Both the position numbers and the translations under genes were made by a program. A DNA stretch of 63,819 bases, counting the filler, from Reticulomyxa filosa (taxonomy: Eukaryota; Protista; Foraminifera), in the NCBI GenBank assembly GCA_000512085.1. It is 10 parts of 10 records of this genome, joined end to end, with 100 filler letters (N's around TTAATTAATTAA, not from the genome) between each part and the next. Parts side by side here need not be neighbours in the genome. Positions count along the whole stretch, not along the records: positions 17,006 to 23,933 come from ASPP01027742.1; 9 more parts are not named here. One strand, given 5' to 3'. A model generated the notes under the pieces. It worked only from the letters and a program-made list of their open reading frames with translations, was not told the DNA's origin and made no database searches. Shown here piece after piece: positions 2,788 to 24,033 of this stretch. Position 1 is the stretch's first letter. Each line of letters begins with the position of its first letter.

Positions 2788-3842
2788 ATGTCAGAAAAAG
2801 CGCCGGCTCAAGCCGCCCCAACAACATCAGCTAAACCTGCAGAATCAAAAGAGTCAAAGGAACCAAAAGACAAAAAAACCCGCGACAAGAATGTAATGAG
2901 AGTGATGCAAGTGGATAAGTTGATAATCAACTGTTGCGTTGGAGAATCAGGAGACAAATTGACCAAGGCAGCAAAAGTTCTGAGCAGTTTGACAGGACAG
3001 GCCCCTCAATTTGGCAGAGGTATTGAAAACAAAATGTATTGTTCAATGCTTTGTTGTTTTTTAATTCAATGAGACTGGTTCATCTCATATGCACATAAAA
3101 GAACTAGTCGTATATGATGACAGTTCTATCAATTCTTTTTTTTTTGATTTTTTTTTAGGGTTTGTTTATTTTTTTTATTTATTTAAATCATCTTCGACGA
3201 AATATCGCACATTCTCCTTTTTTAAAATTTTTCCTTTGTGCGTTTTTTTATTTGGTGATACTATTGAATGAAAAGAGCACTAATAAAATCTATTTTATTA
3301 TTGTTTTATGCTTGATTGACATATGAAAGCTCGATTCACTATCCGTGCATTCGGTATCCGAAGAAATGAAAAAATATCATGCTGGGTGACAGTCCGAGGT
3401 GAAAAAGCAGAGGAAATATTGGACCGCGCATTGAAAGTGAAAGAATACGAGTTGCCAGAACAAGCCTTCACTGACACTGGTATGTTAAAGAATTGAGAAG
3501 TGCACAGAGTGAGGGAGGATGGGGATTAAAAGATAAGGAGAAATGAAAAAAGAGAGTTTGAATAGAAAATAATTTTTGTTTGAATGAAATAATACAATAA
3601 TAGGCACCTTCGCATTTGGAATTGCAGAACACATCGATTTAGGTCTCAAATACGACCCATCCACTGGTATTTACGGCATGAATTTCATGGTTGTCTTGCG
3701 TAGACCTGGAGAACGTGTTCGTACCCGCAAAAGAAAAAGATCCCGCGTTGGAAAACCCCACCGTGTGTCAAGAAATGATGCTATGCACTGGTTTAAAACA
3801 AAATATGACGGTGTCATTGTATGGCCAGAGGATCTGCAATAA
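2788..3842 (+). CDS. RPL11: 60S ribosomal protein L11 (uL5), 3 exons
   Basis: [43 protein letters not shown] | [40 protein letters not shown] | [41 protein letters not shown]. Stop TAA at 3840-3842. Confidence 0.97.
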
Positions 3843-4377
3843 ATTTCTGCTGTTTGCTTTTTGTCTTTTTATTGAAAAAATGAAGAAAGTGTACTTGTTG
3901 CACTTATGTTGCATTATTCTCCAACCGCGTGAAGTTGGATTTGTTTGTTCGCATTAGCAACTACAGCAACATTTTTGTTACAATTAGAATCAAATCGGTC
4001 CTCAAAAGGCGCGAGATGCTTTGTTTTATTTGGCCTGTTTATTTGTTTTTGTTTGTTTTTTATGGGTAACTTCAACACGAAATGAACAATCAAAACTGAG
4101 TTACCCATTTCTTGCATTTTCTAATACACGAATCTACTCTTTCCCAGGTTCCAAAATGTCGTTTTTGAAAGTAAAACAGCTGTTCGACATTTCTTTTTGC
4201 TAAAGAAAGTTTTTCAACAAAGTCAATTCAATTAGAAATTTTTCGAATAAGGTTACCTTTTCATTTTTTTGTGATAAGGCGAATATTCGAGGAAAAATAT
4301 TGAAATCTTTTTTTTGTTTTCAAGAGTTTCCTACTGAACATGGAAAAAGCCCCCAAACATTAGATAAAGGAATAATA

Positions 4378-5685
4378 ATGGTTCTATATTTCGTTGGACT
4401 GGGGCTTGGTGACAAAGAAGATATAACAGTGAAAGGATTAGCAGCTGTAAAGCGTTGTAAACGCGTATTCCTTGAGCATTATACAGCAATTCTGACATAC
4501 ACTTCCAAAGAAGAACTAGTTAAGCATATGCTAACCCCACTGAGATATTTTAAAAAATTCAAATTGTTTACAGGAAGAATTTTATGGATGTCACATAATA
4601 TTGGCGGACCGTGAAATGGTGGAACAACATAGTGAAGAGATATTGAAAAACGCAAAGACAGTTGATACAGCATTTCTGGTAGTAGGCGATCCGTTTTGTG
4701 CTACGACACATACAGATTTGCTACTACGTGCTGCACAAGAGCAAGGTATCCCGACGAAAATAATACATAACGCAAGTATAATGAACGCAGTGGCGTGTTG
4801 CGGATTGCAACTATATCATTTCGGGCAGACAGTAAGCATACCATTTTTCACAGAAAAATGGAGACCAGATTCGTTTTATGACAAAATAAAACAAAACAAA
4901 TCCATTGGATTGCACACATTGTGTTTGTTGGACATTAAAGTTAAAGAAATTAGCGAAGAGAATTTGCTCAAGTATGCGCTCATTTTTAACATAACTAAAG
5001 ACTATTTTTATTGCCGCCATTATTTTTTGTTTAACTTTTTTTAAAATTGAACATCATACACACACAGAGGCCGAGAAATTTTTGATCCGCCCAGATTCAT
5101 GACTATCAATTTATGCATTGAACAGCTATTGGAAATCGAAAATCAACGAAAAGAAAACGGTTTTGTTTTATTTGTTGCAATTCTTTTCCTTTTTTCTATG
5201 TGTAAAATGTTTGTGTGAATGCCTAAAGTACAACTATATGCAATATATACATGTATGTATTTATATGTAAATATATACGTACCGAAGTGTATAACGAGGA
5301 GACCAAGTGCATTGGACTTGCGCGTGTTGGTAACGAAAACCAACAGATTGTGTATGGGACAATGAAAGAATTGAAACAACACGATTTTGGTGAACCTTTG
5401 CACTCCTTTGTTATTCCAGGAACTACTCATTATATTGAAGAAGAGGTATTGGATATGTATGCTATTGCCAAAGTGCATGCAAAAACTACTTCTACTGTAA
5501 CTCATCAACATCCCGAAGTTGAGCAAAAAACAGCTGATGAACCTACAAACAACGACAACAACTCTTTGGAACAACCAAGAGATGTTTCTCAATTAATCAC
5601 ACTTGCTGAAAACGAGCTCGAGGAGTTAAAAAAAAAAGCTTTGGCTAAAGGTCTCATTCAAAATCAAGATCAAACACAAAAATAA
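4378..5685 (+). CDS. DPH5: Diphthine methyl ester synthase, 4 exons
   Basis: [28 protein letters not shown]; ADREMVE; [17 protein letters not shown]; [53 protein letters not shown]; PPRFMTI; [19 protein letters not shown]. Confidence 0.97.
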
Positions 5686-10400: not shown

Positions 10401-13353
10401 TAATCAATCAAATGCACCTTACTTATTGATGTCATCTCATTCACTCTATCGTCGTCATTATAACACACCTCATACATACTCAATCATTAATCTTACATAA
10501 GTTCGACCCACAATGTTATTATACGAAGTCACCTCGACACAAGCCTCAAACGTTGTGACATGTTTTTTAGCTTTCGGGTAGTATAACATCATTGATGATT
10601 CCTTCTTCAGCGAAAATACTGAAATTTTTCACCGGTCGTCTTTTCATTGTAAACCATGGTTTCCATTCCTCACATAATTCAAACGCATCTTGCCAGCATT
10701 TTTTACTTATTTCTTCATAGTGCTTTTTTTTCCATTCATCACTACGCTCATGTTCATTCTCTTTTTCATCAACAGCCAGGCTCTTTGTTATCTTTCCTTC
10801 CACATCAAATTCTTTTTCATACATCATTTTAAATTCTTCTTTTGTTTCATGCTAATTTCATTGACGTCCAATTTTTCTTCTTTTTTCAACCACGAGTATG
10901 CTGTTGATTGAAAAAAGTTATTATAAACAAACATAGTATATAGCAATCCTGGAAAGTATTTTTAAAAAAATAATTTATTTTATTGTTGATAATAAAAAAC
11001 TTGGTTCCGATTTTTTGTATTTATTGTGTATTTAATTATATAATTCAAATTTTCAAACATTAAAAACCGAGAAATTCAACAATAGTAATTAAAGAAAGAT
11101 ATATAAAGTCCTATTAGTTCCTTTTGTTACTGTCTTAATATTTAAGTAAAACGAAAGTAGTTATAGTTTTAATTTCTACAAATAACAAATATTGCATAAT
11201 TTATAGAATACTTGAAATTATTTTCTACATAATTTGCATAACTATATAAAAGCAAAATTAAGGATTCATAAAGCTTAAAAAAAAGAACTTAATATCAAAC
11301 AAGCAATGCAAATATTCACTTATTTATCTAAAGAAAACGCAAAGTGTATTAATTGTGGAAAATGCTTTTCATCATATTCAATTATAACAAATTCAACAAT
11401 TTGCAAATGATTGCAATACATACCATTTTACTTAAACTTTATGTATCATCAATTTCACTTTTATATATAATGATAATTAGATTTTAAGAATTTCAAAAAT
11501 AATATATTCTTGAATGTTCAAATTTGGTTTTCTGCAAATACATATATAGAAAATTGATTTTAAGGATTCGACAAATAATAGAATACCTTGATCCTGAATT
11601 TTATTTTCTCACATGCTACAGTATGTTGCAAAGAAACTGAACGCTTAAAACGATATCTTATGATGATTGATTTTCTCCATGAAAAATCAACATTTAGACC
11701 TAATTTTTTTTTTTTAATAGCACGCTGGTGGGGTAGGGCCTACAATGGGAAAAGGCATAACTAGAAGCAAATACACTAGGACAAAAATCCTAAGCTTAAG
11801 GGGTTTGTGGCAATCAAGTGGGTATTGCCTAATGGTGGAAAATACCGAAAAGCCTAATAAATAAAAGAGCAAAGCCACACACAATGTCGTTATAACTATT
11901 GAGTGGGTTAGTCACAGTAAGCGAGACCGGTGTATGTGATTGCTTCTCGCACAAAATAATATGTTGTCTAGACCACTATCCTAAAGTTTTTATCTAAAAA
12001 TAGTAATTTAAATACTAGAGGATTATCGACGTTGTCAATGTAGTGATATTATGAAAAAAGCTTTTTTTTATTTAAAAAATTGTTTTAAATGACATACAGT
12101 CAACAACGTGATCCGCACAAAGATCGTGATTCACAAGAAGGTAAAGAAAAAGTTTTTATTTCAAGGAGGCCAAAAAGTTTTTGCAAAGAGCATGGCATAG
12201 GCTAAAAATCAATTAAAAAGAAAAACAAATTGACAAAGGTAGTACTTATTGCAAAAACTATACGAAATGTTTACAACCAAAGTTTTTTAATAACAAAAAA
12301 TAAGCCCTTAGAGGAAAAAAATAAGTTTTAATCATCTACTATATAAAGCATATTATCTTGATCATACTGACGTTTGTAGCGATAATTTCTTGTTATTTCC
12401 TCATTTGTAATGTAGCCAGAATCACGTTGGTAAACATCATAGCTTATTGCTATATTTCTTGATTTCTGCTCAATTAGCCCCAAATACTAGTAATTTAGCA
12501 AGTGATATCATATTATGCTGATTAAAGTCATTTGGACATTGGAACTATCATGTGAAGATTAGCAACCATTTTTGTATATAATCAATCATTTCTCTACTGC
12601 TTTTTTTTCCTATCCAAAAACTCACAAAAAATCAACTACTTAAAAAATTTTAACGACAAAAAACTTATAATAACATCTTCTGTTGAATTATGTTCATGTA
12701 TAATTCTCAACTACTATCTTTCAAAAATTATTTTTTCACATGTCTATATATTGCTGGACTGTCAAAATAAAAAATCAAAAAAAAATTTGTTACATATTAG
12801 ACCTTTATAAAACGAAATAATGAAGAACATATATAAAACTTTAAGTTGAGAAAATTTTTTTTTAAGTTCAATTGCATCCTATAAATTTTTCAATAGTAAC
12901 ATATGAAAATTGTCAAAACAGTGAAATAATAGCAAAATCGAATTCCCTTTAAAAAATAGACATCATTAAATGTTTTTAAAGAAAAAAAATTTTTACTTTT
13001 AAAAGTAATCACATTGGCAGCTACAGAATCTTATACATAACATTTTTGACCACTGGTATCATAAATATATATTAGCAATGAGTTTTAAAAAAATATTTTT
13101 TGTTGAACACCAGAGCGTTTCCCCTTTGAATTTTCACTTAAAAGATTTTACCTTTTGTTTATTTTTCTCAACCATGACAAGCCGTTTGCCTGTTTCCAAG
13201 CCTAACCTGCATACGCGATATGAGCTTGCGCAGACTTATTTTGAGTGATCAACTTTTAAGATAGCTCAGATTTGTTGATTTTCACACGACAAAAAATAAA
13301 AAAATTGACAATTTAGCATTGTACATGCTACATAATAATGTATTCAAAATTGA

Positions 13354-13453: not shown

Positions 13454-14326
13454 CGGTGTAGGTCAGAACGTCGATCCGGAAGCCGCCCTCGCCAGCCACC
13501 TGCCGCAGAAAGTCGGCAGACCCCGGCACCGATCGGCCTTCCTCTGCGGTGGTGTAGCCGAACCGGGCCCAGAGGTCGGCCCCGGCGCGGATGATGGCCT
13601 TCATGCCTCGGCGTCCACCGATCCCATCAGTTTTATCCAGGCAAGGATATGCGCATTCTCTTCCAGAATGCCGGTCGGCTCGCCGTTCGCATCGCGGATG
13701 ATCACGCCGCCCGCCGGGTCCGGCGTGTCGCGGGTGATCCCAAGCAATTCCAGCGCCTTGGAATTCGCCGCCCCCATGTGGCTTGACTGGTGGATCAGGT
13801 AGATCGGGAACTCGGTCGAGATCGCATCGAGGTCTGCGCGGGTCGGGTCGCGCAGTTCCGCCAGCGTCGAGCGGTCATAGCCGAACCCCATGATCACGCC
13901 AGTGCGCTGCACGATGTCCTGGTTTTCCGCGATCCAGTCGCGCAAGGTCTGCTGGAGCGAGGGAATATCGGTCACGTCTCCGTCCGGCGGCGCAAGAATG
14001 TTCGCGGTCAGCGCCTGGATGCCGCCGATCATCACATGGCCATGGGCGTCGAAAAAGCCTGGAAGCAGGGCGCGGCCCTCAAGCTCAGTCACCTCGGTGC
14101 CCTCGCCCTTCAGCGCCATCACCTCCTCGACCGAGCCGACAGCGATGATCCGGCCATCCTTAACCGCAACGGCCTCGGCACGCGGTTGGGCGTCGTCCAT
14201 CGTCAACACCGGACCACCGGTGAAGATGCGGTCGGCCACCTCCTGCGCATGCACCGCCTGCGTCAGGACGAGCCCCGTCACCCCGGCCCTGACGGCCGCC
14301 CACGCCCTTGTCCGAAGCACAGACAT
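13454..14326 (-). CDS. Bacterial secreted amidohydrolase (YtcJ-like / Amidohydro_3), partial, with a 1-nt frameshift at about 13604
   Basis: Signal peptide ending AVHA-QE; ADRIFTGGPVLTMD..AEAVAVKDGRIIAVGS; LLPGFFDAHGH metal motif; PTRADLDAIS..PIYLIHQSSHMGAANSKAL..GI..DTPDPAGGVIIRD..GEPTGILEENA. Homology continues in ORF 13398-13604 (ARFGYTTAEEG). GC-rich and intronless. Confidence 0.9.
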
Positions 14327-14412
14327 GATCCCCCCCGATCAGATCGCACTTAACAAGTGTTGGGGCAATGGGCGCCCTGTGGCAAGGATTCCTTTGGGCG
14401 CGCTGTCTCGCG

Positions 14413-14572
14413 TCAGAAGAACCAGGGGTTCGACCAGGCGCGTCTGCCGGCCGCATCGATCACGGTCACCCGAACCCAGGGCGACCCCCGGAAGCGCTCC
14501 ATCGGCAGCGTGGCCTGCGTCATGGAATGGCCATGCACGGCTTTGGCGGCCGTGCCCGCGCCCTGCACGATG
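14413..14572 (-). CDS. 3' end of a bacterial PHP-domain (CehA/McbA-like) metallohydrolase gene, not in the ORF track
   Basis: Minus strand reads IVQGAGTAAKAVHGHSMTQATLPMERFRGSPWVRVTVIDAAGRRAWSNPWFF-stop. The terminal WxRxxVxDxxGRRAWSNP pattern is typical of this family's C-terminus. Confidence 0.6.
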
Positions 14573-14573
14573 A

Positions 14574-14673: not shown

Positions 14674-14684
14674 TTAAAAAAAAA

Positions 14685-15966
14685 TTAAATAAAATTACTT
14701 TTGTCGTCCGCCGAAGGCACTAAAGATTGTAGCTCTTGCAAAGCGATGGTGCTAGTGCTATCTTGGGACAAACACAAAGCTTCAATGTCGCGGGACTTGG
14801 CATCAGCGGCATCGGCGTCACGGTTGGCGTCACGGTCGACGTCGGCGTCGTTTTCGGTTCGCAATTTGGGGTCGAAGCGCGTAGCGGCATCCGTGCGCGT
14901 CGGGAGAAGAGGGAATGTCTTGCTCAAGTATGTCTTGGTCTTTTTCGCCTTGTGTTCACCCTGATCGTCTTCTTCGTTGTTCGGCACAATGTGCATCGTC
15001 ATCAAGTCCATCGCCGTCTTTGCTCGTTTGTCGTTGAGAAGGCCTTTCAACTCGCTTTGGATAGGGTGTACCAGATGCATATCCACATTGAACATACGTG
15101 GAGTGACACGAGCCAACTATTTCCAAAAAAGTTCAAATTCAAAACTTGACCCTTTTTTTTTTTTTTATTTTTTTTACACGTGCAACATGAACCTCCTCCT
15201 TTCCCCCCCCCTTCCCCTTTTTTTTTTTTGCGCAAACGTATACAAGTGAATAAATTAAACTTTTAAAGCGGATCTCAAGTGCGGGGTCATAGCCGTCTTA
15301 ACAGCAGCCGTTCGCTCTCGAGGGGTTCGGTAAAGCGGCTGAATCGCCGAAGCTGATGGCTCGGTCGTCCCCGTTTCCAGTTCTATCATTTGCTTCACCT
15401 TTTGCTGTGTCGGCGGGGGGCTGCGCATTCTCGGCAAAAAAAATTCATAGTATACGTATTGCACAAACGCCACCACTGTGACGGTTAAATACACAAAGGC
15501 CAGTGCAATGTTCGTTACTAAGTTACGTGTCAAAATGCAACCAACCAAATTGCAAATGTCTCCCACCAACCACAACAACCAAAACAAAAATGATTGCGAT
15601 TCCGCGCTTTGGTGGACGCAATTACTTATTATTTGCGGCAACAGGGCCACTGTCCATATGGCCACTGATATCCAACCGACCACGAATGACACTTCCTCAT
15701 ATGTCTGTTCTCATTTTTTTTTTTATGTGTACATGTTTATTTATATACACACACAATATATATACATATTATGTACATATTTTTTTTTTTTAAATGTTTG
15801 TGTTAATTTTTTTTTTATCTTTTCTTGCCCACCCTTCGGATAACGTAAAGCTTAGTTAATCTCTTACATTGTAGATACAAACACCTAAAGGTTCTGTCCT
15901 TCTCCAACGCAATTGCTCTCCAAATTCATTTGTTGGCTGACATGACACTCCATTTAGTGACGTCAT
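14685..15966 (-). CDS. PQ-loop lysosomal/vacuolar amino-acid transporter (PQLC2/Ypq-like), 3' end truncated by the contig end
   Basis: Exon 1 MTSLNGVSCQP..LGVCIYN (ATG at 15966), then an intron. Exon 2 SFVVGWISVAIWTVALLPQIISN...AESQSFLFWLLWLVGDICNLVGCILT..LAFVY..QYVYY is the first PQ-loop. A long hydrophilic loop follows. Confidence 0.85.
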
Positions 15967-16905
15967 GATATTTTAGATTTGTTCTTTGTCCGCCAAGCTC
16001 ACTTTTTCAACTTCCTAATAAACGGGAAACTCCAAAACTCGGTTTAGTACTTAAAAAAAATTTATTGTCCGTATTACAATCAATTGAAAAAACTTAATTA
16101 ATATTAAAAGTTAAGCTTGGGGAAAATTAATTAATAATCTTTTACAAGTTGCAAGAATGATTGTTATATGTGCCATACAACTAAAGATGGATATATGTGT
16201 TCGTATACACACTCAGTTATGTTATATAACATTGTATAGTGAAGCATATAAACAACGATTAGATAAAATTTATCACGTTGTTATTTTTATGTTAAAAGCC
16301 AAAATTTTGATGCGAAAAAAAGCAAATGTTTTGCCGAGAGAGAAGATTTTCAAGTGTGAAGTCTATTTTTATTACTTTTAAAAGCATAAAATCAATTCGG
16401 AGTTAGTATTTCTTCATAAAAACATTGACGTTTGATATTCAAATGTCTGACTTAAATGACTAGCATATAAATTTCACACACACAAACGAGTAAACAAATT
16501 GTCAATATATTGAATGTTATTCTATAAAGAGCTTTTCAGTTAGTGAACAAATGGTCTTGTTCATGAGAGGAAAACACTGTCAACAAACAAACACAAAGCA
16601 ATCCATTTTTTTCTTCTGTTCTGAAGATTTTCAAACAAAGGAGAATCAGATTTTGCCATAATTATTACACTTTAATGCATCAAATGCAGAAATAAGTAAG
16701 AAGTTATCTAGAAAAAACAAAAATCTATATTATTGTGCCAAAAAAACAATGGTGCATCACAATATCATATGTTCACTGAAGCAAAAACTAATATATTCAT
16801 ACGTTTGAAATTTGATAAATATACAATATTCTTAATGAAATTCAAATATATATTGTAATGGTTTTACAAACAAAACATTTTCTATTCAATAAGTTCATGT
16901 CATCA

Positions 16906-17005
16906 NNNNNNNNNNNNNNNNNNNNNNNNNNNNNNNNNNNNNNNNNNNNTTAATTAATTAANNNNNNNNNNNNNNNNNNNNNNNNNNNNNNNNNNNNNNN
17001 NNNNN
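16906..17005. other. Artificial contig spacer
   Basis: N44-TTAATTAATTAA-N44. Confidence 0.99.
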
Positions 17006-18499
17006 GGTTCAATTTATATGAAGTTCTTCGAAATTTTTAAAAATCATTTCAAAAAATCATATTTTTCATCAACCTAGAAAAAACATATTATAAAACCAAT
17101 TTAATATTTAAAAACTACAAGATTAGTAGATATTTTAAAAAAATTAAGTTTAAATTTTTATTTTTCATGGAGAAAATCGATTCTATTCTGTAGTGCCATT
17201 TAGATATGGCAGTTTTTTTTGTATTTGGACTATTTTCCATATATTACATGAGTTTTTTATTGGCGTTCTGAGCTTTTCTATTGCATTCCCACAACTAAAA
17301 GTATTGGATTACAGCAAAAGAAAATAGTGCAAGTATTCTTCAGTTTGCTCAAAAGTTTGTCATTTAAATAGATTTATTTAGAGATGACAAAGAATTTAGT
17401 TGTCTGAAACACACTTTTTTTTTTTAGCTTCTTGGTCTTTCTTAATCAAAAGACTTGTGTTTTTTTTTTGCACAGTCACACAATACCGAAAAAAGAACCT
17501 TGCGAACGAAATACTTTCTTGTGAATTAGGTGTGGTAAAGAGCAATTTTTTTCCTAAAGCACATATTGTTTTTTTAATAGCGATTTTCGTGTTGTCTTTT
17601 TACTTCTAAATTTTTGTCATTAATGACTCTGTGATTTAACTTTTTATCTTTTATATTGTTATTTTTGTTGTTCTTCTTTGTTATAATATTGTCCTTTTTT
17701 TATTTGGTTGTTACTAATGTGAAACATTGTACTTCACAAACTTTTTCAATATTTTTTTTGAAAGATATTTATGTTTGGAGATTCCTAAAAAACAAACAAA
17801 AATATTTGAAAAAGCAATAGGACTAATACAAGCGCAAATTATATGAAACCTCGCAAAATTTTCAAATCATTTAAAAGGATTACGTTTTTATCCAATGAAT
17901 TAACAAATATATATAAATACTTCAATTGAAAATTTTGCATCATACTGTTACTTATTTTTTTCTTTTAAATTATTAATACAACTTATGTCGATTATTTATA
18001 GGAGAGTTTACATTGAAAATTACATCAAAATTATAAAATTAAGGTTCTTTTATTTAAAAAAATTCACTAAAGAGATCTTGACATTGTATTTTAAAAAAAG
18101 CGTAAGTTTTTAATTATATTTTTGTAATAACTTGCAAATTTCAGTTTTTTGGATGTTATGAATAAGTACTGAGAAATTACAAATATATATTCAAAAGATC
18201 ATTTATCTACTCATTATTCCTTTTTAAAAAATAAATTGAAGATATTTCCCAAAAAAAGCCATATTTATGATATTTAATTTTTTTAAACAGACAGCTAGTA
18301 AGAGGTTGGTGTTTTGCATTTTAGCTATGAACCATAAAATGTTTTAACATCTTATCAAAGAAAGAAAAAAAGAAAAATATTTCTTTCTACACACATTGCA
18401 TAAATATGTTATAATAAAACGTGTTCTTTTATTGATTGAATATTAGTTGTTATCTTCAAAAAGTGAATCATGGACTTCACAGCTGTTGCCATTTCTGAT

Positions 18500-19400
18500 T
18501 CGTTTCCACTAATATCTCCATCTATTTTGATTTATCATATTCTTCTTAGTATTGGTTGTTCATTGTTAAAAAGTACATTATTACTTGTAAATACTCTTGG
18601 AAGGCCTTTAGGTATTTCAACATGCCATATTTTACGTTTATTGCTGTAGTTTCGTCTAAGTCTAATATATGAACCCGCTCTTCTATTGTCCAATTCACTA
18701 AATTCATATCATCAAATACAATTCCATCGTATAAAATATCTAATTTTTTTAACTGGTCTCTATAACTAACTAACAAATGTTTTTAAAAAGTGATAACGCA
18801 AATTGGGTTTTACCAGTTTAGTCTGCCCATGCAGCCATAATTCATGCTTCGAACGATTCCAATTTGATATATCATTTACGTTTTTAAATTTATATTTATT
18901 GTTTCTTTCGATATTACTTTTTGATAACCTTTCTACGCTTTGCTCCATACGTAGATTATCTCTTAAATAGTCTCTAGCTATTACTGGGTCATTTATTATT
19001 ATATTCATTGAGTCATCTAAATCTCCTTCTATTGCTGCTTTCACTGCTGGATTAATTATAGAAAAATTAATTATATTTGTTATATAATTTTTTTCCTTGC
19101 TGCAATATTTTTTTACAGCTAAAGATTTACGACAACTCTGGTAATTTCTATGAAATCCATTCATATATAATCTATTTACTGATAGTATATCTACTTTATT
19201 TTGACAATTAATGTAACAATGCAAATGTCTACCTTTATGTTCGTGACTTTCAACAGCAATTAAGTATTCATTAATTGGAAGTTTTTTCCCAATATTTCTG
19301 GAGTTTCTTCTAGTCCCAATTTACATTGTTTATAAATTAGAAATAAATTTTTTGCTTGTAATCGAAAATTTGTTTTTTTAATTTGTTTGATATCACTTAG
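18500..19400 (-). mobile_element. rep: Endogenous CRESS-DNA virus Rep pseudogene, geminivirus/genomovirus-like (HUH endonuclease + SF3 helicase)
   Basis: Read across frameshifts: FRLQAKNLFLIYKQC (motif I at 19332-19343; geminivirus FRINAKNYFLTYPQC), ESHEHKGRHLHCY (motif II, 19213-19227), GRS-like NRLYMNGFHRNYQ, KKYCSKE (motif III, 19096-19107), LWLHGQTK/TGKTQFA (Walker A, about 18806-18828), DGIVFDDM (Walker B, 18708-18722), IPKGLPRVFTSN (motif C, 18580-18597), ILRR (Arg finger, 18541-18552). Intronless. Confidence 0.92.
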
Positions 19401-19552
19401 TATGTAATCTTTATCATTGTCATCGCTTTCCTAATCACTTTCATCAGCATTTCTATCACTTTCACCATTTTTAAAATGTCATTTCTGCTTGATATATCTC
19501 TAATAAATATCTCTGTCTTTCCATAAGTTAAAAAATCGAGAAATGATAAAAC

Positions 19553-19915
19553 CTTTGCTGGGATTGACTGCCAACTTGGCAAATGCTGTCTCGTAGAGTT
19601 CAATGCACTTCCAAATACTTGTAAATTTGTTTTTTTTTAATTGCATTGCCATCATTTTTTCTTCATTGGTCCAGTTTTGATTGAATTTTAGAATGTGATC
19701 GCACAGCATCGAAGTTAAAGGATCTTTCAAACAAAACGATCGCGCAGCTACATTCACGATCGACTGCGTAATGACCTGATATATATTCATGGTCGCATAT
19801 ATAAATTTACCTATATTTTGTATTCTCGCTCGTTGCTTCTCTATAGGTGAATTTATATATGCGACCATGAATATCTCTTCGGTATTTGCCAAGTTGGCAG
19901 TCAATCCCAGCAAAG
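19553..19915. repeat. Inverted repeat, 32-bp perfect arms (19553-19584 / 19884-19915), extending imperfectly to about 19531/19937
   Basis: ctttgctgggattgactgccaacttggcaaat is the exact reverse complement of atttgccaagttggcagtcaatcccagcaaag. Confidence 0.95.
19783..19874. repeat. Hairpin: 33-bp stem (one mismatch, G-T on the + strand) with a 26-nt loop
   Basis: atattcatggtcgcatatataaatttacctata (19783-19815) pairs with tataggtgaatttatatatgcgaccatgaatat (19842-19874). Confidence 0.95.
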
Positions 19916-22900
19916 TTTTATTATTTATCGAGTTTTTGTATATTTCCAAAATCAAGTACAGTTGCAACGTTTGCTTCGCGCCAAATGTAAATTTGATTAT
20001 TCGATCTCGTCCCAACTGCTCAACGTTTGCGATCAATTTGTACAAAAATTTGAAGAAAAAGAAGCTGACAAAGTAACTCCGTATCTCTGACTTTTCTCGT
20101 GTATAATTCGTTATGTGGCATCGCACGCCTGGTTCCAATATCACCAAGATTTCTCCTACTAGCTTCATCAAATATGTACGTGAATTTAAATCATAGAGAT
20201 TTGACACTTACAAATTCACAAATTGCTTCAATTCTAGCGCTATCGCCCGTACGGCCAACGCCGTAAATCTACACTTACCCATCTTTGTGTAAAGATTCAC
20301 AATTTCCAAAGTTGAAAATAGAAAATATCGTGTCCCCTAGGAACCTTTGCAAGGTGTGACCTCATAAAGGAATTATGGCCACTGTGCATAAATATACATT
20401 TATATGTTATGGTATTGAATTTTGTAAAGCACATTAAAACAGCATATTGTTTTGTTGGACGAAAGTTGGCCTCATTTAATTTAGAAAGGAATTTGTCAAA
20501 AAGTTTTTTGTTCATCATCATTAGAACACATTACATGATCTTTTTGTTGTATCTCTTAGGTCACTATCTATTTATTCTATCATATTTCATTGATATAACT
20601 CACCACCTTCCATCAATGCTTGCCTTACAGCAATGTCATATAAAACATTGGGAATACCACACCATTGGTTCAATCGCAAGCACGCATTGCACAAATCAGC
20701 AATTTGTTTATTGAAATTTTGCTAGATAGTGAATTATTAAAAGGAAAGCAAATGCATTTCAACTTTGAAAAATTAATTTCACATTGTCTTTTTGATTTAT
20801 CATACGCTGAAAAGGATAATAAGACAATGAATCATTAATATGATTTTTTTTTTCTTGATAACATATATTTGGCTTCATCATTACAATTTGCAACATTTTG
20901 TCATATGCTTTGTTAACCAAACAAAAAAAAGTATAATGATTATAACTTCTTTTTCAAAAATCCTGTTTTTAGGCACTGTTTCTTTATCTTAAAACAATAT
21001 TTGATAATTTTAAACTTCGAATCAATGCGACAAATCATGATTCATAATAGTACATGTAGAATGCTTTTCTTATGGCCACACTTGATTCACAAAGAGAATC
21101 GAAATGAATCACGTTTGTAGAAGGATTTTCAAGAAATAGATTTTCTCTTTGATCGTATATGTAATGCTTCTTGGATGCATTGAGATGCAGTTCAACCTGA
21201 AATAGTGATCTGCAAAAATGATTTTTTTGTGTCTATTTTTTGTTTGGATAAAATGCATGTTTTTAATCTTACTATTCTTTTAACAAAACAAGTTTCCTTT
21301 TTTATTCCACAGCTGAAGGTATTTTGATAAGAATGACAGAAGATTTTCTCTCTATCTTTTGTTTGTTCTTTGAAATACTGTGCCTCTAGGCTCCCCTAAT
21401 CTGACATTTTTTTTGTTCACTTTTTTCAAAAAAAATTTCTTTGTTAAAACAGCTTGTCAAATGCAACTAAACACTCAAACAAGGTATGTGTCACACAAAT
21501 GAGCCAAACGCAAACAATAAAATTGATTTACATGAACAAAGACAAGGAAAAATTGTACATTTTTCAAAGTCTTTCTTGTAATTCTCATTGAAAAAGTATC
21601 CATAAGAGCACAAAGTTTTTTCCGCTGCAATGTAAAATTACATTTTTTTAAAAAGTATTGATCTTAAGGAATATTTGGAATTTGAAAATGTACGTATAAT
21701 TTTTCTACTATTGCAATTGTTTGGCTCTGGGATATACTTTTCATTTGTTTCTTTCGAATTTGATTCCTTATTAGCCATAATTGTAATAATTAAGTTCCGC
21801 TTTTATGGCCATTAATAAAAATTCTAAATAGAGATCACAATTACAACAAAAAGCATAGTGAAAAAAATCAACTGATTTCCTAATCACTTAATTGCAAAGT
21901 CATCCACAATGGAGATATACATTTGTGGTTTCAAAAAACAAAAAGATATCAAATAATAACAATTTGCAATTTGAATCAAGAACTAAATTTTTTTTTTTAC
22001 AAGACTTAAAGCAAAGCAAACGATATAAAACGATCAAATCCAAAACTGTTTTAGATAGCATTTTTTATTCTTAATTTTAAAATTCACGTTCCAACAGGTT
22101 TTTCTTTTGTTTTACACTTTTGGTAACTACGATTATTAAGTATTCGTAAATATTCTTTACTGTTTGTTTTAATTACAAAAAAGTTTTTTTCAAAAATTTT
22201 TTAGCTTTTTAAGTAAACAAGCACAAAAAAGTTATTCGCATAATACGTTGTTGAAAATGCTTTTAAAAAAGTTGGCAAATTTCATGATTACGACACAAGC
22301 ACAACTGTCAACTTTTTCTCGAAATTTTACATAAATCAATAAAAAATTCAAATTATTGAAAAATTAGGAAAGATAGAATAAAAATCAAAAACATATTTAA
22401 AAACAACGTGATTTGTAGATATTTTTTAAAAAAATGTTTGATTAAATCTACAACGCTGGCAGATCACGCGTTTTTTTTCGTGAAAGAGATCGAGATATAT
22501 TCGATAGCTTGATTTTTTATTTAATTTTTGTTATGCTGCAAGAAAAATTTTCTTTTGAAATGGTGATTGAAATTTTTGTTTTTCATGCATAGTATTCAAA
22601 CGATGTCTATCAATAAATGCCTTTGAATGAGTTAGATTAATTCTTATAAAAATTTTGCTCCAACCAATTAAAAAAGAAATTATTTGTAGAGCCTATTAAA
22701 TGATTTTGACTCCAAGTATGTTTGCATTTCTAAAAAGTGCCTTTTTTTGTTAAGCTATTACCGGCTTTCTTTGTATGCAGTTTCTTTTTCAGCAGTTGTT
22801 TCATTATTATTTGTTTGTTTGTTATAATTTAAGATTTTTAAATGTCCAATGCTATCTTTTTTGTTTTTGTTTTAATTATAATATCAATTTCAGGTTTTAT

Positions 22901-23299
22901 CATCAATTCAACAATCTCATCGCAATTATTAATGTCAAGCAATACTATTATTTATATCACGTAAACATACATAATGTAATATCCATTGATATTGCATTGA
23001 TTAATTTAATATCATTTTTACACATAGAAATTGTTTCATTTCTGAAGCAAGATGTGTTTGGCTGTCAATTGATTCCTTCATTGTATCACCTTTTTTGAAG
23101 TTGCACCTTTTGATGAAACACAAACCTAATTATTCAAATCATTTGAATGAGTTTTTCTTTAATTCTTTGACATCAATGCAATTTCCCTTTTCGTTTTATT
23201 CGTTTATCAATTTAAACGAAATGTTATGAAATCCAATACACCATCTATTTTATTATTATTCAAACCAACCTTTTTTTGTAATACGAACAAACTTAATGC

Positions 23300-23860
23300 T
23301 CTGAAAACGAATACATACCAATATTTGCGAATGATTTCTTGTGTCTCGAAATTGCTGCCTTCGACGGATTGGAAAATTGAAAAAAATATCTTTGACATAA
23401 ATTAGTGTACCTTTTTCATTTGTGTTGCTTTTGTGTGTGTGTCGTTTGGCTCTTCACTTACATTCAATATCACTTGTCCGCCTCGAATCACTTTCCGATT
23501 TTGCCTTCTTCTTTCTCTTTCATTCGATATTATCTCCAACAGACTTACTTGTCCTATTGATGACAATGCTTCTCCTTGATATCCCAATGTCATCTCCTTT
23601 CCGTTCTCACTTCCCATGCTCTTGCTTGAATAATATCTCTTTCCTATCTTTTCCATTTCTTCCGCGGTTATGCCTATTCCATCGTCTTTCACTGTTATTG
23701 AATACTCTCTCAAGTTTATTACTATTTTTATCTCACTTGCTTTGCTATCGATGCTGTTCATTATCAACTCGTCCATGATCCGGTAGATGTCGGTGATTAA
23801 AAGTGTGGAACGGAGTAATTGTTGTGTTTTGCCATTTAGGCAGTGTATTCGTCCTGATCG
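23300..23860 (-). CDS. MLH3: MutL homologue, MLH3-like, N-terminal GHKL ATPase part; frameshift at about 23415, remainder not recognisable
   Basis: RIHCLNGKTQQLLRSTLLITDIYRIMDELIMNSIDSKAS.I...ITVKDDGIG.....EKIGKRYYSSK...TLGYQGEALSSI. After the frameshift it reads KGTLIYVKDIFFNFPIRRR. The N-terminus resembles MLH3 (IKCL....LRSG...EELALNSIDA..EKVGNRYFTSK). Confidence 0.75.
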
Positions 23861-23933
23861 TGAAGTTGCCAGTTTTCTTTTTTTCGTCGACTTCAGTCTT
23901 ACCTGAAAACAAAAAAAAAAAAAAAAAAAAGGG

Positions 23934-24033
23934 NNNNNNNNNNNNNNNNNNNNNNNNNNNNNNNNNNNNNNNNNNNNTTAATTAATTAANNNNNNNNNNN
24001 NNNNNNNNNNNNNNNNNNNNNNNNNNNNNNNNN
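23934..24033. other. Artificial contig spacer
   Basis: N44-TTAATTAATTAA-N44. Confidence 0.99.

What the first reader, a model, noticed from the sequence alone, without database searches (positions are those of the whole stretch)
18500..19400. Endogenous geminivirus-like CRESS-DNA Rep in a protist (probably foraminiferan) genome
Seen: an intronless minus-strand sequence, broken by at least four 1-nt frameshifts, keeps the following in order: FRLQAKNLFLIY (motif I), HLHCY (II), GRS-like GFHRNYQ, YCSK (III), G..KTGKT (Walker A), IVFDD (Walker B), VFTSN (motif C) and ILRR (Arg finger). The ORF track shows only two fragments of it. Established: this motif set defines HUH/SF3 Reps of cressdnaviruses, and the FRxxAKNxFLxY start plus GRS-like motif are hallmarks of the gemini/genomovirus branch. 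Inference: this is a fossil of an ssDNA virus that infects this protist lineage. The helicase half looks to me like environmental CRESSV6-type Reps, so it could give a host assignment to an orphan clade. I cannot tell whether this copy has been described. No capsid gene or nonanucleotide origin was found on the contig.
Basis: partly seen in the sequence, partly recalled or inferred. Interest (0 to 1): 0.85.

Follow-up and report, generated by a model that had tools for sequence, protein, structure and literature searches.

The report
Decayed CRESS Rep fossil in foraminiferan
A broken copy of the replication gene of a small circular single-stranded DNA element sits among other broken genes on a contig of the foraminiferan Reticulomyxa filosa assembly; it is likely a chromosomal fossil showing that this protist hosted such an element, but its intact sister gene is already in a published dataset and it is not a geminivirus.

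Summary
Observation confirmed: window 19451-18446 (minus strand) is a full-length HUH plus helicase Rep with five one-base frameshifts and three stops. Read through with X, it is 65% identical (219/335) to an intact Rep of the same assembly, ETO15557.1 of Reticulomyxa filosa. The window is a chain of contigs; the Rep's 6,928-bp contig also carries broken NEMF and MutL-family genes and a repeat shared with another contig, so a host location is likely (no reads to test it). It is not gemini-/genomovirus-like in the strict sense: no Gemini_AL1_M domain, no GRS loop, Arg finger kept, and grouping with the geminivirus branch is rejected (AU p=0.003). It falls with Smittium (gut-fungus) Reps and environmental Reps, the 'P. 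pulchra-like' group of Kazlauskas 2019, whose supplement already lists ETO15557.1. A host link for the whole clade is therefore not unique to foraminifera. No capsid remnant or convincing origin was found. Open point: seven of ten close environmental relatives lie on 1.56-1.70 kb contigs with little room for a capsid, so the source may be a capsid-less minicircle rather than a virus. New member of a known kind; interest 0.4.

The parts
18446..19451 (-). Rep pseudogene (HUH endonuclease plus SF3-type helicase), aligned to residues 175-516 of ETO15557.1; five one-base frameshifts, three stops
19096..19367 (-). HUH domain: motif I (FLIY; invariant T changed), motif II (HLH), short GRS-like FHRNYQ without the geminivirus loop, motif III (YCSK)
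18541..18828 (-). Helicase motifs: Walker A (split by a frameshift), Walker B IVFDD, motif C VFTSN, arginine finger ILRR; three frameshifts inside
19368..19480 (-). Short acidic leader (ESD repeats, one stop), weakly like the 200-residue acidic extension of ETO15557.1; most of that extension is absent here
   Evidence: resemblance weak; inference
19500..20282 (-). Broken 5' part of a NEMF/Rqc2 (NFACT) gene directly upstream of the Rep: in-frame stop near 20210, then rearranged. The match is shown for 19920-20207 only; the part below 19850 gave no hit
19530..19937 (.). Nested inverted duplication inside the NEMF remnant (55-bp arms at 93%; inner 94-bp fold-back at 77%); no further copy in the window
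23150..23905 (-). MutL-family (PMS1/MLH-like) ATPase gene behind a poly-T plus CAG acceptor; the frame changes near 23410, so it is also broken
17137..17181 (.). 45-bp sequence 89% identical to 11666-11710 on another contig of the window (E 8e-10)
17006..23933 (.). The 6,928-bp contig that holds the Rep, bounded by N44-TTAATTAATTAA-N44 linkers

Best explanation
This is a dead Rep gene, broken by five frameshifts and three stops, likely integrated in the Reticulomyxa filosa nuclear genome and likely left by a small circular ssDNA virus of the 'P. pulchra-like' branch (CRESSV6 side, outside gemini-/genomoviruses). Shown: the motifs, the breaks, the intact 65%-identical sister Rep in the same assembly, the tree position and the broken eukaryote-type genes beside it. 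From established knowledge of CRESS Reps: the ancestral protein nicked a stem-loop origin with the motif III tyrosine (HUH metal site) and unwound the circle as an SF3 helicase for rolling-circle replication by host polymerase. Inferred: a replicating circle in the host nucleus was captured into the chromosome by non-homologous repair or Rep-mediated nicking and joining, next to a NEMF fragment; only the rep part was kept or stayed recognisable; it then decayed neutrally and makes no working protein. Confidence: about 0.85 for a host-integrated fossil of either source type, about 0.5 for a capsid-bearing virus as the source.
For: Decay independent of frameshifts: 13 of 59 columns conserved in 18 environmental Reps are changed, against 5 of 60 in the paralog (Fisher p 0.043). 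Window-only changes exceed paralog-only changes with 8 of 8 outgroups, p<0.05 in 4 of 8. End branch 0.36 against 0.12. Two adjacent stops are substitutions. Host context: human NEMF E 1.8e-8 directly upstream; yeast PMS1 is the best PDB hit (E 4e-11) for the MutL-family gene, which follows a poly-T plus CAG acceptor; 4-mer correlation 0.94 with the other contigs against -0.46 for the bacterial-looking contig, and a repeat shared with another contig. No relative in the prokaryote genome collection or among phages. Tree: window+ETO15557.1 100/100; 12-row clade with three Smittium and seven environmental Reps 93/84; split from the geminivirus branch 100/99, as. For a virus: the nearest relatives whose DNA I could read are 2.0-3.5 kb contigs, most with terminal repeats and a second large ORF; Circo_capsid E 3e-30 in L009, TNV_CP E 5e-4 in L001, no Pfam hit in the other 3 of 5 tested. 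Three of ten close relatives leave 910-1099 bases beside the Rep.
Against: No capsid remnant or origin on the contig. Seven of ten close relatives leave only 579-713 bases beside the Rep, and the published group is anchored on algal plasmids. The capsid-bearing loci are only 28-35% identical and lie outside the close clade. The assembly holds at least one bacterial-looking contig (13454-14573, GC 0.66), and the neighbouring genes are broken and partly fold-back rearranged, so misassembly or a co-cultured eukaryote is not excluded. The ESM Atlas put the NEMF fragment nearest to mostly bacterial NFACT clusters (recognition below its bar). Several environmental Reps also depart at 8-11 conserved columns, so the decay signal is moderate. 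No Pfam SF3 model hits the window fragments or the paralog.
Confidence: 0.5

Rival explanations
1. Same chromosomal fossil, but the source was a capsid-less Rep-only minicircle (a eukaryotic plasmid, or a satellite/segment packaged by a helper) of about 1.5-2.2 kb. The intact ETO15557.1, alone on a 2,232-bp contig, would be its living or younger form.
For: Seven of ten close environmental Reps lie on 1556-1700 bp contigs; two 97%-identical Reps lie on contigs of exactly 1556 bp and a third relative on 1565 bp. ETO15557.1 leaves 681 bases on its contig. PMC6668415 groups these Reps with Pyropia pulchra plasmids derived from CRESSV6 viruses (passages).
Against: Only contig lengths were seen, not the DNA. 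Partial contigs are common in this source (one cluster spans 1374-2157 bp), and repeated breaks at a hairpin could give equal lengths. Three of ten leave room for a capsid. The metagenome scan read only 23 of 64 parts and missed them.
Confidence: 0.33
2. Assembly artefact or foreign DNA: the Rep comes from an exogenous element or a co-cultured eukaryote and was joined or binned wrongly, with the frameshifts partly being sequencing under-calls.
For: A bacterial-looking contig in the same window; fold-back duplications just upstream; all five shifts are one base short, and the MutL-family gene also changes frame at an A run.
Against: Stops and changes at conserved columns are substitutions that an active exogenous Rep should not carry. 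Homopolymer context is not enriched: 5 of 5 breaks near runs of 3 or more against 74% background, 2 of 5 near runs of 5 or more against 15%. Composition and a shared repeat tie the contig to the others.
Confidence: 0.12
3. A rolling-circle transposon or integrating selfish element using a Rep-helicase as transposase, multiplied in R. filosa and Smittium genomes.
For: Several copies on contigs of 3.5-34 kb in Smittium; long N-terminal extensions in ETO15557.1 and two Smittium Reps, against 10-25 residues in environmental Reps.
Against: Only two copies surfaced for R. filosa in protein searches, and they are 35% apart; no element ends or second copy of the flanks in the window. Replitrons lack a helicase and Helitrons use a Y2 Rep with an SF1 helicase (passages).
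Confidence: 0.05

Closest known systems
'P. pulchra-like' Rep group of Kazlauskas et al. 2019 (PMC6668415): 3 Pyropia pulchra plasmid Reps, 8 with OLY/OMJ accessions (two of these, and a further OMJ Rep, named Smittium), and R. filosa ETO15557.1
   Same: Sister to ETO15557.1 (100/100, 65% identity); in one clade with listed members OLY79389.1 and OLY79699.1; short GRS-like motif; arginine finger kept.
   Different: This copy (gene model RFI_31564) is not among the 12 listed, is broken and lies among host-type gene remnants. The algal plasmid Reps were not available for my trees.
CRESSV6 viruses (now Geplanaviridae; the equivalence is recalled, not checked)
   Same: PMC6668415 nests the P. pulchra-like group inside CRESSV6; same side of the tree, away from geminiviruses.
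   Different: No capsid gene, no origin; no labelled CRESSV6 reference in my tree; capsid-bearing relatives only 28-35% identical.
Geminiviridae / Genomoviridae / phytoplasma pCRESS9 Reps
   Same: Gemini_AL1 HUH domain; best PDB hits of the close-clade profile include 1L2M and 7VG8, E 1e-18 and 6e-19 (that these are geminivirus Reps is recalled).
   Different: No Gemini_AL1_M domain, no GRS loop, Arg rather than Asn finger, different Walker A/B context; grouping rejected.
Endogenous cressdnavirus Reps used as host evidence in protists (Naryaviridae, Nenyaviridae, Kirkoviridae, CRESSV1 in PMC9615429; oomycete copies in bioRxiv 10.64898/2026.04.22.720165)
   Same: Same kind of fossil and the same use for host inference (passages).
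   Different: Different Rep lineage and host (Rhizaria); the clade here is shared with fungi and a red alga, so it does not point to one host group.

Membership tests
CRESS-type Rep (Cressdnaviricota and related plasmids) | HUH endonuclease with motifs I-III, one catalytic Tyr | tested here: met
   Gemini_AL1 above cut-off; motifs in alignment; motif I Thr changed
CRESS-type Rep (Cressdnaviricota and related plasmids) | Fused SF3 helicase (Walker A, B, motif C) | tested here: met
   Motifs align with environmental Reps; profile hits at positions 191-284; no Pfam SF3 hit on the window or paralog, weak PPV_E1_C (E 0.005) on P0003
Cressdnavirus (virus proper) | Linked jelly-roll capsid gene | tested here: not met
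   0 of 857 ORFs by tblastn, 0 true hits of 273 by phmmer on this contig; rest of the assembly not searchable
Cressdnavirus (virus proper) | Nonanucleotide stem-loop origin on a circular ssDNA | tested here: inconclusive
   Seven loose matches; the one folded is weak and far away; an origin can be lost on integration
Geminiviridae/Genomoviridae | Gemini_AL1_M central domain | tested here: not met
   Absent in window fragments, paralog and 3 of 3 relatives; present in 4 of 4 geminivirus-branch references
Geminiviridae/Genomoviridae | Asn in place of the arginine finger (PMC6668415 supplement) | tested here: not met
   ILRR kept
Geminiviridae/Genomoviridae | Full GRS motif | tested here: not met
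   FH.NYQ core only; the loop seen in L219 and L257 is absent
Geminiviridae/Genomoviridae | Monophyly with these Reps | tested here: not met
   AU p=0.0034, 30 rows, LG+G4; references are unlabelled IMG/VR contigs classed by Pfam, no verified genomovirus
'P. pulchra-like' Rep group | Clusters with the listed members | tested here: met
   With ETO15557.1 100/100; clade with OLY79389.1 93/84; algal plasmid Reps not in hand
'P. pulchra-like' Rep group | GRS-type motif with arginine finger conserved | tested here: met
CRESSV6 / Geplanaviridae | Nested among CRESSV6 Reps, with geminivirus-like capsid | not testable with these tools
   No labelled references; nesting taken from PMC6668415; no capsid here
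Endogenous viral element | Joined to host DNA | tested here: inconclusive
   Host-type genes, composition and a shared repeat on the contig; junctions not tested with reads
Endogenous viral element | Neutral decay | tested here: met
   Stops, frameshifts, excess changes at conserved columns
Replitron / Helitron transposons | Rep without helicase (Replitron) or Y2 Rep with SF1 helicase (Helitron); multicopy with defined ends | tested here: not met
   SF3-type helicase present; no ends found in the window; genome-wide copy number not testable

The most novel reading that the evidence does not exclude
The clade is a family of capsid-less, Rep-only rolling-circle minicircles of 1.5-2.2 kb, eukaryotic plasmids or satellites descended from CRESSV6 viruses, that has colonised foraminifera, insect-gut fungi and red algae. 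The window copy is its chromosomal fossil and ETO15557.1 on a 2.2-kb contig is a live episome, which would be a first extrachromosomal replicon of a foraminiferan and a culturable host for the group.
Probability: 0.2. Interest if true: 0.72.

Novelty: new member of a known kind. Interest (0 to 1): 0.4.

Why it matters
No foraminiferan ssDNA virus or plasmid turned up in my paper searches. The intact R. filosa Rep sits alone on a 2.2-kb contig and could be dismissed as contamination; a decayed sister copy among host-type gene remnants argues that the lineage really replicated in this protist over time. It makes a cheap test possible (rolling-circle amplification of R. filosa DNA) and points to ten environmental Reps whose host and capsid status are unknown. 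The gain is limited: endogenous CRESS Reps in protists are a known kind, the R. filosa lineage is already in a published alignment, and the clade spans unrelated hosts.

Tried and rejected
Whole-genome search: no genome held, so copy number and capsids elsewhere are untested. Sequencing runs: none was listed for 17100-23800; this is no evidence either way. DNA of the close environmental relatives: not recovered from viral contigs, metagenome contigs (23 of 64 parts read) or prokaryote genomes. Plasmids: no hit with the window fragment; one weak phytoplasma pCRESS9 hit with P0005; phages none. Nested inverted repeat as a MITE or origin: rejected; there is no other copy in the window and it duplicates sequence within the NEMF remnant. 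The 235-aa ORF upstream as a capsid or second viral gene: rejected, it is NEMF/NFACT. Twenty further ORF pieces of the contig gave no Pfam hit better than E 0.03. The neighbouring 2,232-bp contig has the same length as the ETO15557.1 contig but does not encode it (E 7.9): coincidence. Pyrosequencing under-calls as the cause of the frameshifts: not supported statistically, not excluded. R. filosa + Smittium as one clade: neither shown nor rejected (AU p=0.146). The careful mixture-model tree on 58 rows did not finish; its quick version is cited. Earlier findings of the scan: nothing. Exact look-up of two flanking ORFs: not in the collection. No structure prediction was run; the family is clear from sequence.

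Full report
Observation. Pfam Gemini_AL1 hits the first two fragments at consecutive model positions. A profile built from eight environmental Reps ranks five window pieces first among 3000, collinear with the model, and scores the X read-through at E 1.7e-112. A frameshift-aware alignment against the paralog covers 19451-18446 with 219 of 335 identities, five one-base frameshifts, two adjacent stops just after the arginine finger and one stop in the acidic leader.

Where it lies. The window is ten contigs joined by N44-TTAATTAATTAA-N44 linkers. The Rep is on 17006-23933 (6,928 bp). The gene model over it is RFI_31564 of Reticulomyxa filosa, recorded on a contig of 6,928 bp. Directly upstream on the same strand is a broken 5' part of NEMF/Rqc2 (human NEMF E 1.8e-8, the only PDB hits at E<=1; Pfam NFACT_N), with an in-frame stop and a nested inverted duplication. 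Against a eukaryotic reading, the ESM Atlas placed this fragment nearest mostly bacterial NFACT clusters, below its recognition bar, and the distal part of the remnant had no PDB hit. At the far end is a MutL-family ATPase gene (best hit yeast PMS1, E 4e-11; bacterial MutL 8e-9) behind a poly-T plus CAG acceptor; its next conserved motif lies in another frame (E 0.37). The contig's 4-mer profile correlates 0.94 with the other contigs, a bacterial-looking contig in the same window gives -0.46, and a 45-bp sequence is shared with another contig. No whole genome was held and the junctions could not be tested with reads, so they are untested. I put host integration at about 0.85.

Is it dead? Beyond the frameshifts, 13 of 59 columns conserved in 18 environmental Reps are changed, against 5 of 60 in the paralog (Fisher p 0.043). 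The eight closest environmental Reps depart at 1-5 columns, more distant ones at up to 11, and Smittium copies at 12-20. Window-only changes exceed paralog-only changes with 8 of 8 outgroups, significantly in 4 of 8. All five shifts are one base short, which sequencing under-calls could produce, but the homopolymer context is not enriched over background. The stops are substitutions, so the copy is broken either way.

Relatives. The fragment's only word-index hits were its own gene model and a 516-residue intact Rep of R. filosa, ETO15557.1, on a 2,232-bp contig. Searching with that Rep gave 95 proteins, led by environmental Reps at 44-53%; the exhaustive search gave 263 at E<=0.001. Of 28 of these hits looked up by name, five clusters were Smittium mucronatum, S. 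megazygosporum or S. culicis, one was ETO15557.1, and the rest were unnamed or 'hypothetical'. Trees: 202 rows by FastTree after removing rows 68% or more identical to a kept row and partial rows (P0009 and P0098 fell out as near-copies of P0007); 58 rows, mixture model, quick search; 30 rows, careful LG+G4. All join the window copy with ETO15557.1 (100), place the pair in a clade with Smittium and seven or eight environmental Reps (93/84 for 12 rows, not starred), and separate it from the geminivirus branch (100/99). Forcing the pair onto the geminivirus branch is rejected (p-AU 0.0034); forcing it with Smittium is not (0.146). The geminivirus references are unlabelled IMG/VR contigs; 4 of 4 tested carry Gemini_AL1_M, which the window fragments, the paralog and 3 of 3 relatives lack. 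The GRS loop is absent and the arginine finger is kept.

Virus or capsid-less circle? No capsid remnant was found on the contig and no convincing origin. The nearest relatives whose DNA I could read are 28-35% identical, mostly with terminal repeats and a second large ORF; 2 of 5 such ORFs tested hit a capsid model. For the ten close environmental Reps only contig lengths were visible: seven leave 579-713 bases beside the Rep and three leave 910-1099; two Reps 97% identical both lie on 1556-bp contigs. An eleventh, partial member (137 aa, 1141 bp) was left out of this count. That pattern fits Rep-only circles, but partial contigs are common in this source. I give the virus 0.5 and the capsid-less circle 0.33.

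Mechanism. Known for CRESS Reps (own knowledge): nicking at a stem-loop by the motif III tyrosine, SF3 helicase unwinding, rolling-circle copying by host polymerase. Inferred here: a nuclear circle was captured into the chromosome by end-joining or Rep-mediated joining beside a NEMF fragment, lost or never brought its other parts, and decayed. The gene model RFI_31564 bridges one break with a predicted intron and lacks motifs I and II; it is probably not a real protein.

Literature. PMC6668415 (main-text passages; supplement passages from files 6, 7 and 9; files 13 and 14 not searched) defines a 12-member 'P. pulchra-like' group nested in CRESSV6 that lists ETO15557.1, without naming Reticulomyxa in the main text; this window's copy is not among the 12. 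bioRxiv 10.1101/2022.12.15.520654 (passages; supplements closed) names R. filosa and Smittium for that group in a legend. PMC9615429, bioRxiv 10.64898/2026.04.22.720165, PMC11128263, PMC13689118 and bioRxiv 10.1101/2022.03.09.483724 were seen as passages only; none treats R. filosa. Ten searches found no paper describing this copy or a foraminiferan host. The library lacks most subscription papers: a 2021 survey of endogenous CRESS Reps across eukaryotes (Zhao, Lavington and Duffy; cited) was not held under the DOI I recalled and may list it. That CRESSV6 equals Geplanaviridae is recalled.

Verdict. A real, decayed, probably host-integrated Rep of a known group; new member of a known kind. What remains of interest is the host evidence it adds and the open, testable question of whether the clade consists of capsid-less minicircles. 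Interest 0.4.

Noticed in passing
window 13454-14573: Contig with GC 0.66 and an intronless amidohydrolase ORF (Amidohydro_3 E 2e-36); looks like bacterial contamination of the assembly.
   Followed up: partly
window, nine linkers (e.g. 16906-17005, 23934-24033): The window is ten contigs joined by N44-TTAATTAATTAA-N44, so adjacency across linkers means nothing.
   Followed up: yes
window 19500-20282: Scrambled NEMF/Rqc2 remnant with a fold-back duplication and what looks by eye like a short inverted segment near 20030-20075; decay or amplification artefact.
   Followed up: partly
window 23150-23905: MutL-family (PMS1/MLH-like) gene with a frame change near 23410; MutL, NEMF and Rep remnants all lie on the minus strand of one contig.
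   Followed up: partly
window 20300-21800: Minus-strand stretch of short ORF pieces that reads like another decayed gene; no Pfam hit.
   Followed up: partly
window 14674-16905: Contig of 2,232 bp, the same length as the ETO15557.1 contig, but it encodes a PQ-loop protein, not the Rep.
   Followed up: yes
P0002 residues 1-200; P0100; P0103: Genome-derived Reps of R. filosa and Smittium carry long low-complexity N-terminal extensions (acidic QSD repeats; Pro/Ser-rich), whereas environmental relatives start 10-25 residues before motif I; could be gene-model artefacts.
   Followed up: no
L071: A 4.8-kb viral contig with two divergent Rep ORFs (330-1412 and 3446-4555) that are sisters in the tree.
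   Followed up: no
L006, L008-L011, L015, L016, L021, L025, L031, L032: Many CRESSV6-side contigs have a 200-280-residue ORF overprinted on the Rep in another frame of the same strand.
   Followed up: no
window 17028-17144 and 22319-22435: 117-bp diverged direct repeat (74%) on both sides of the Rep/NEMF block, 5.3 kb apart; AT-rich, meaning unknown.
   Followed up: no
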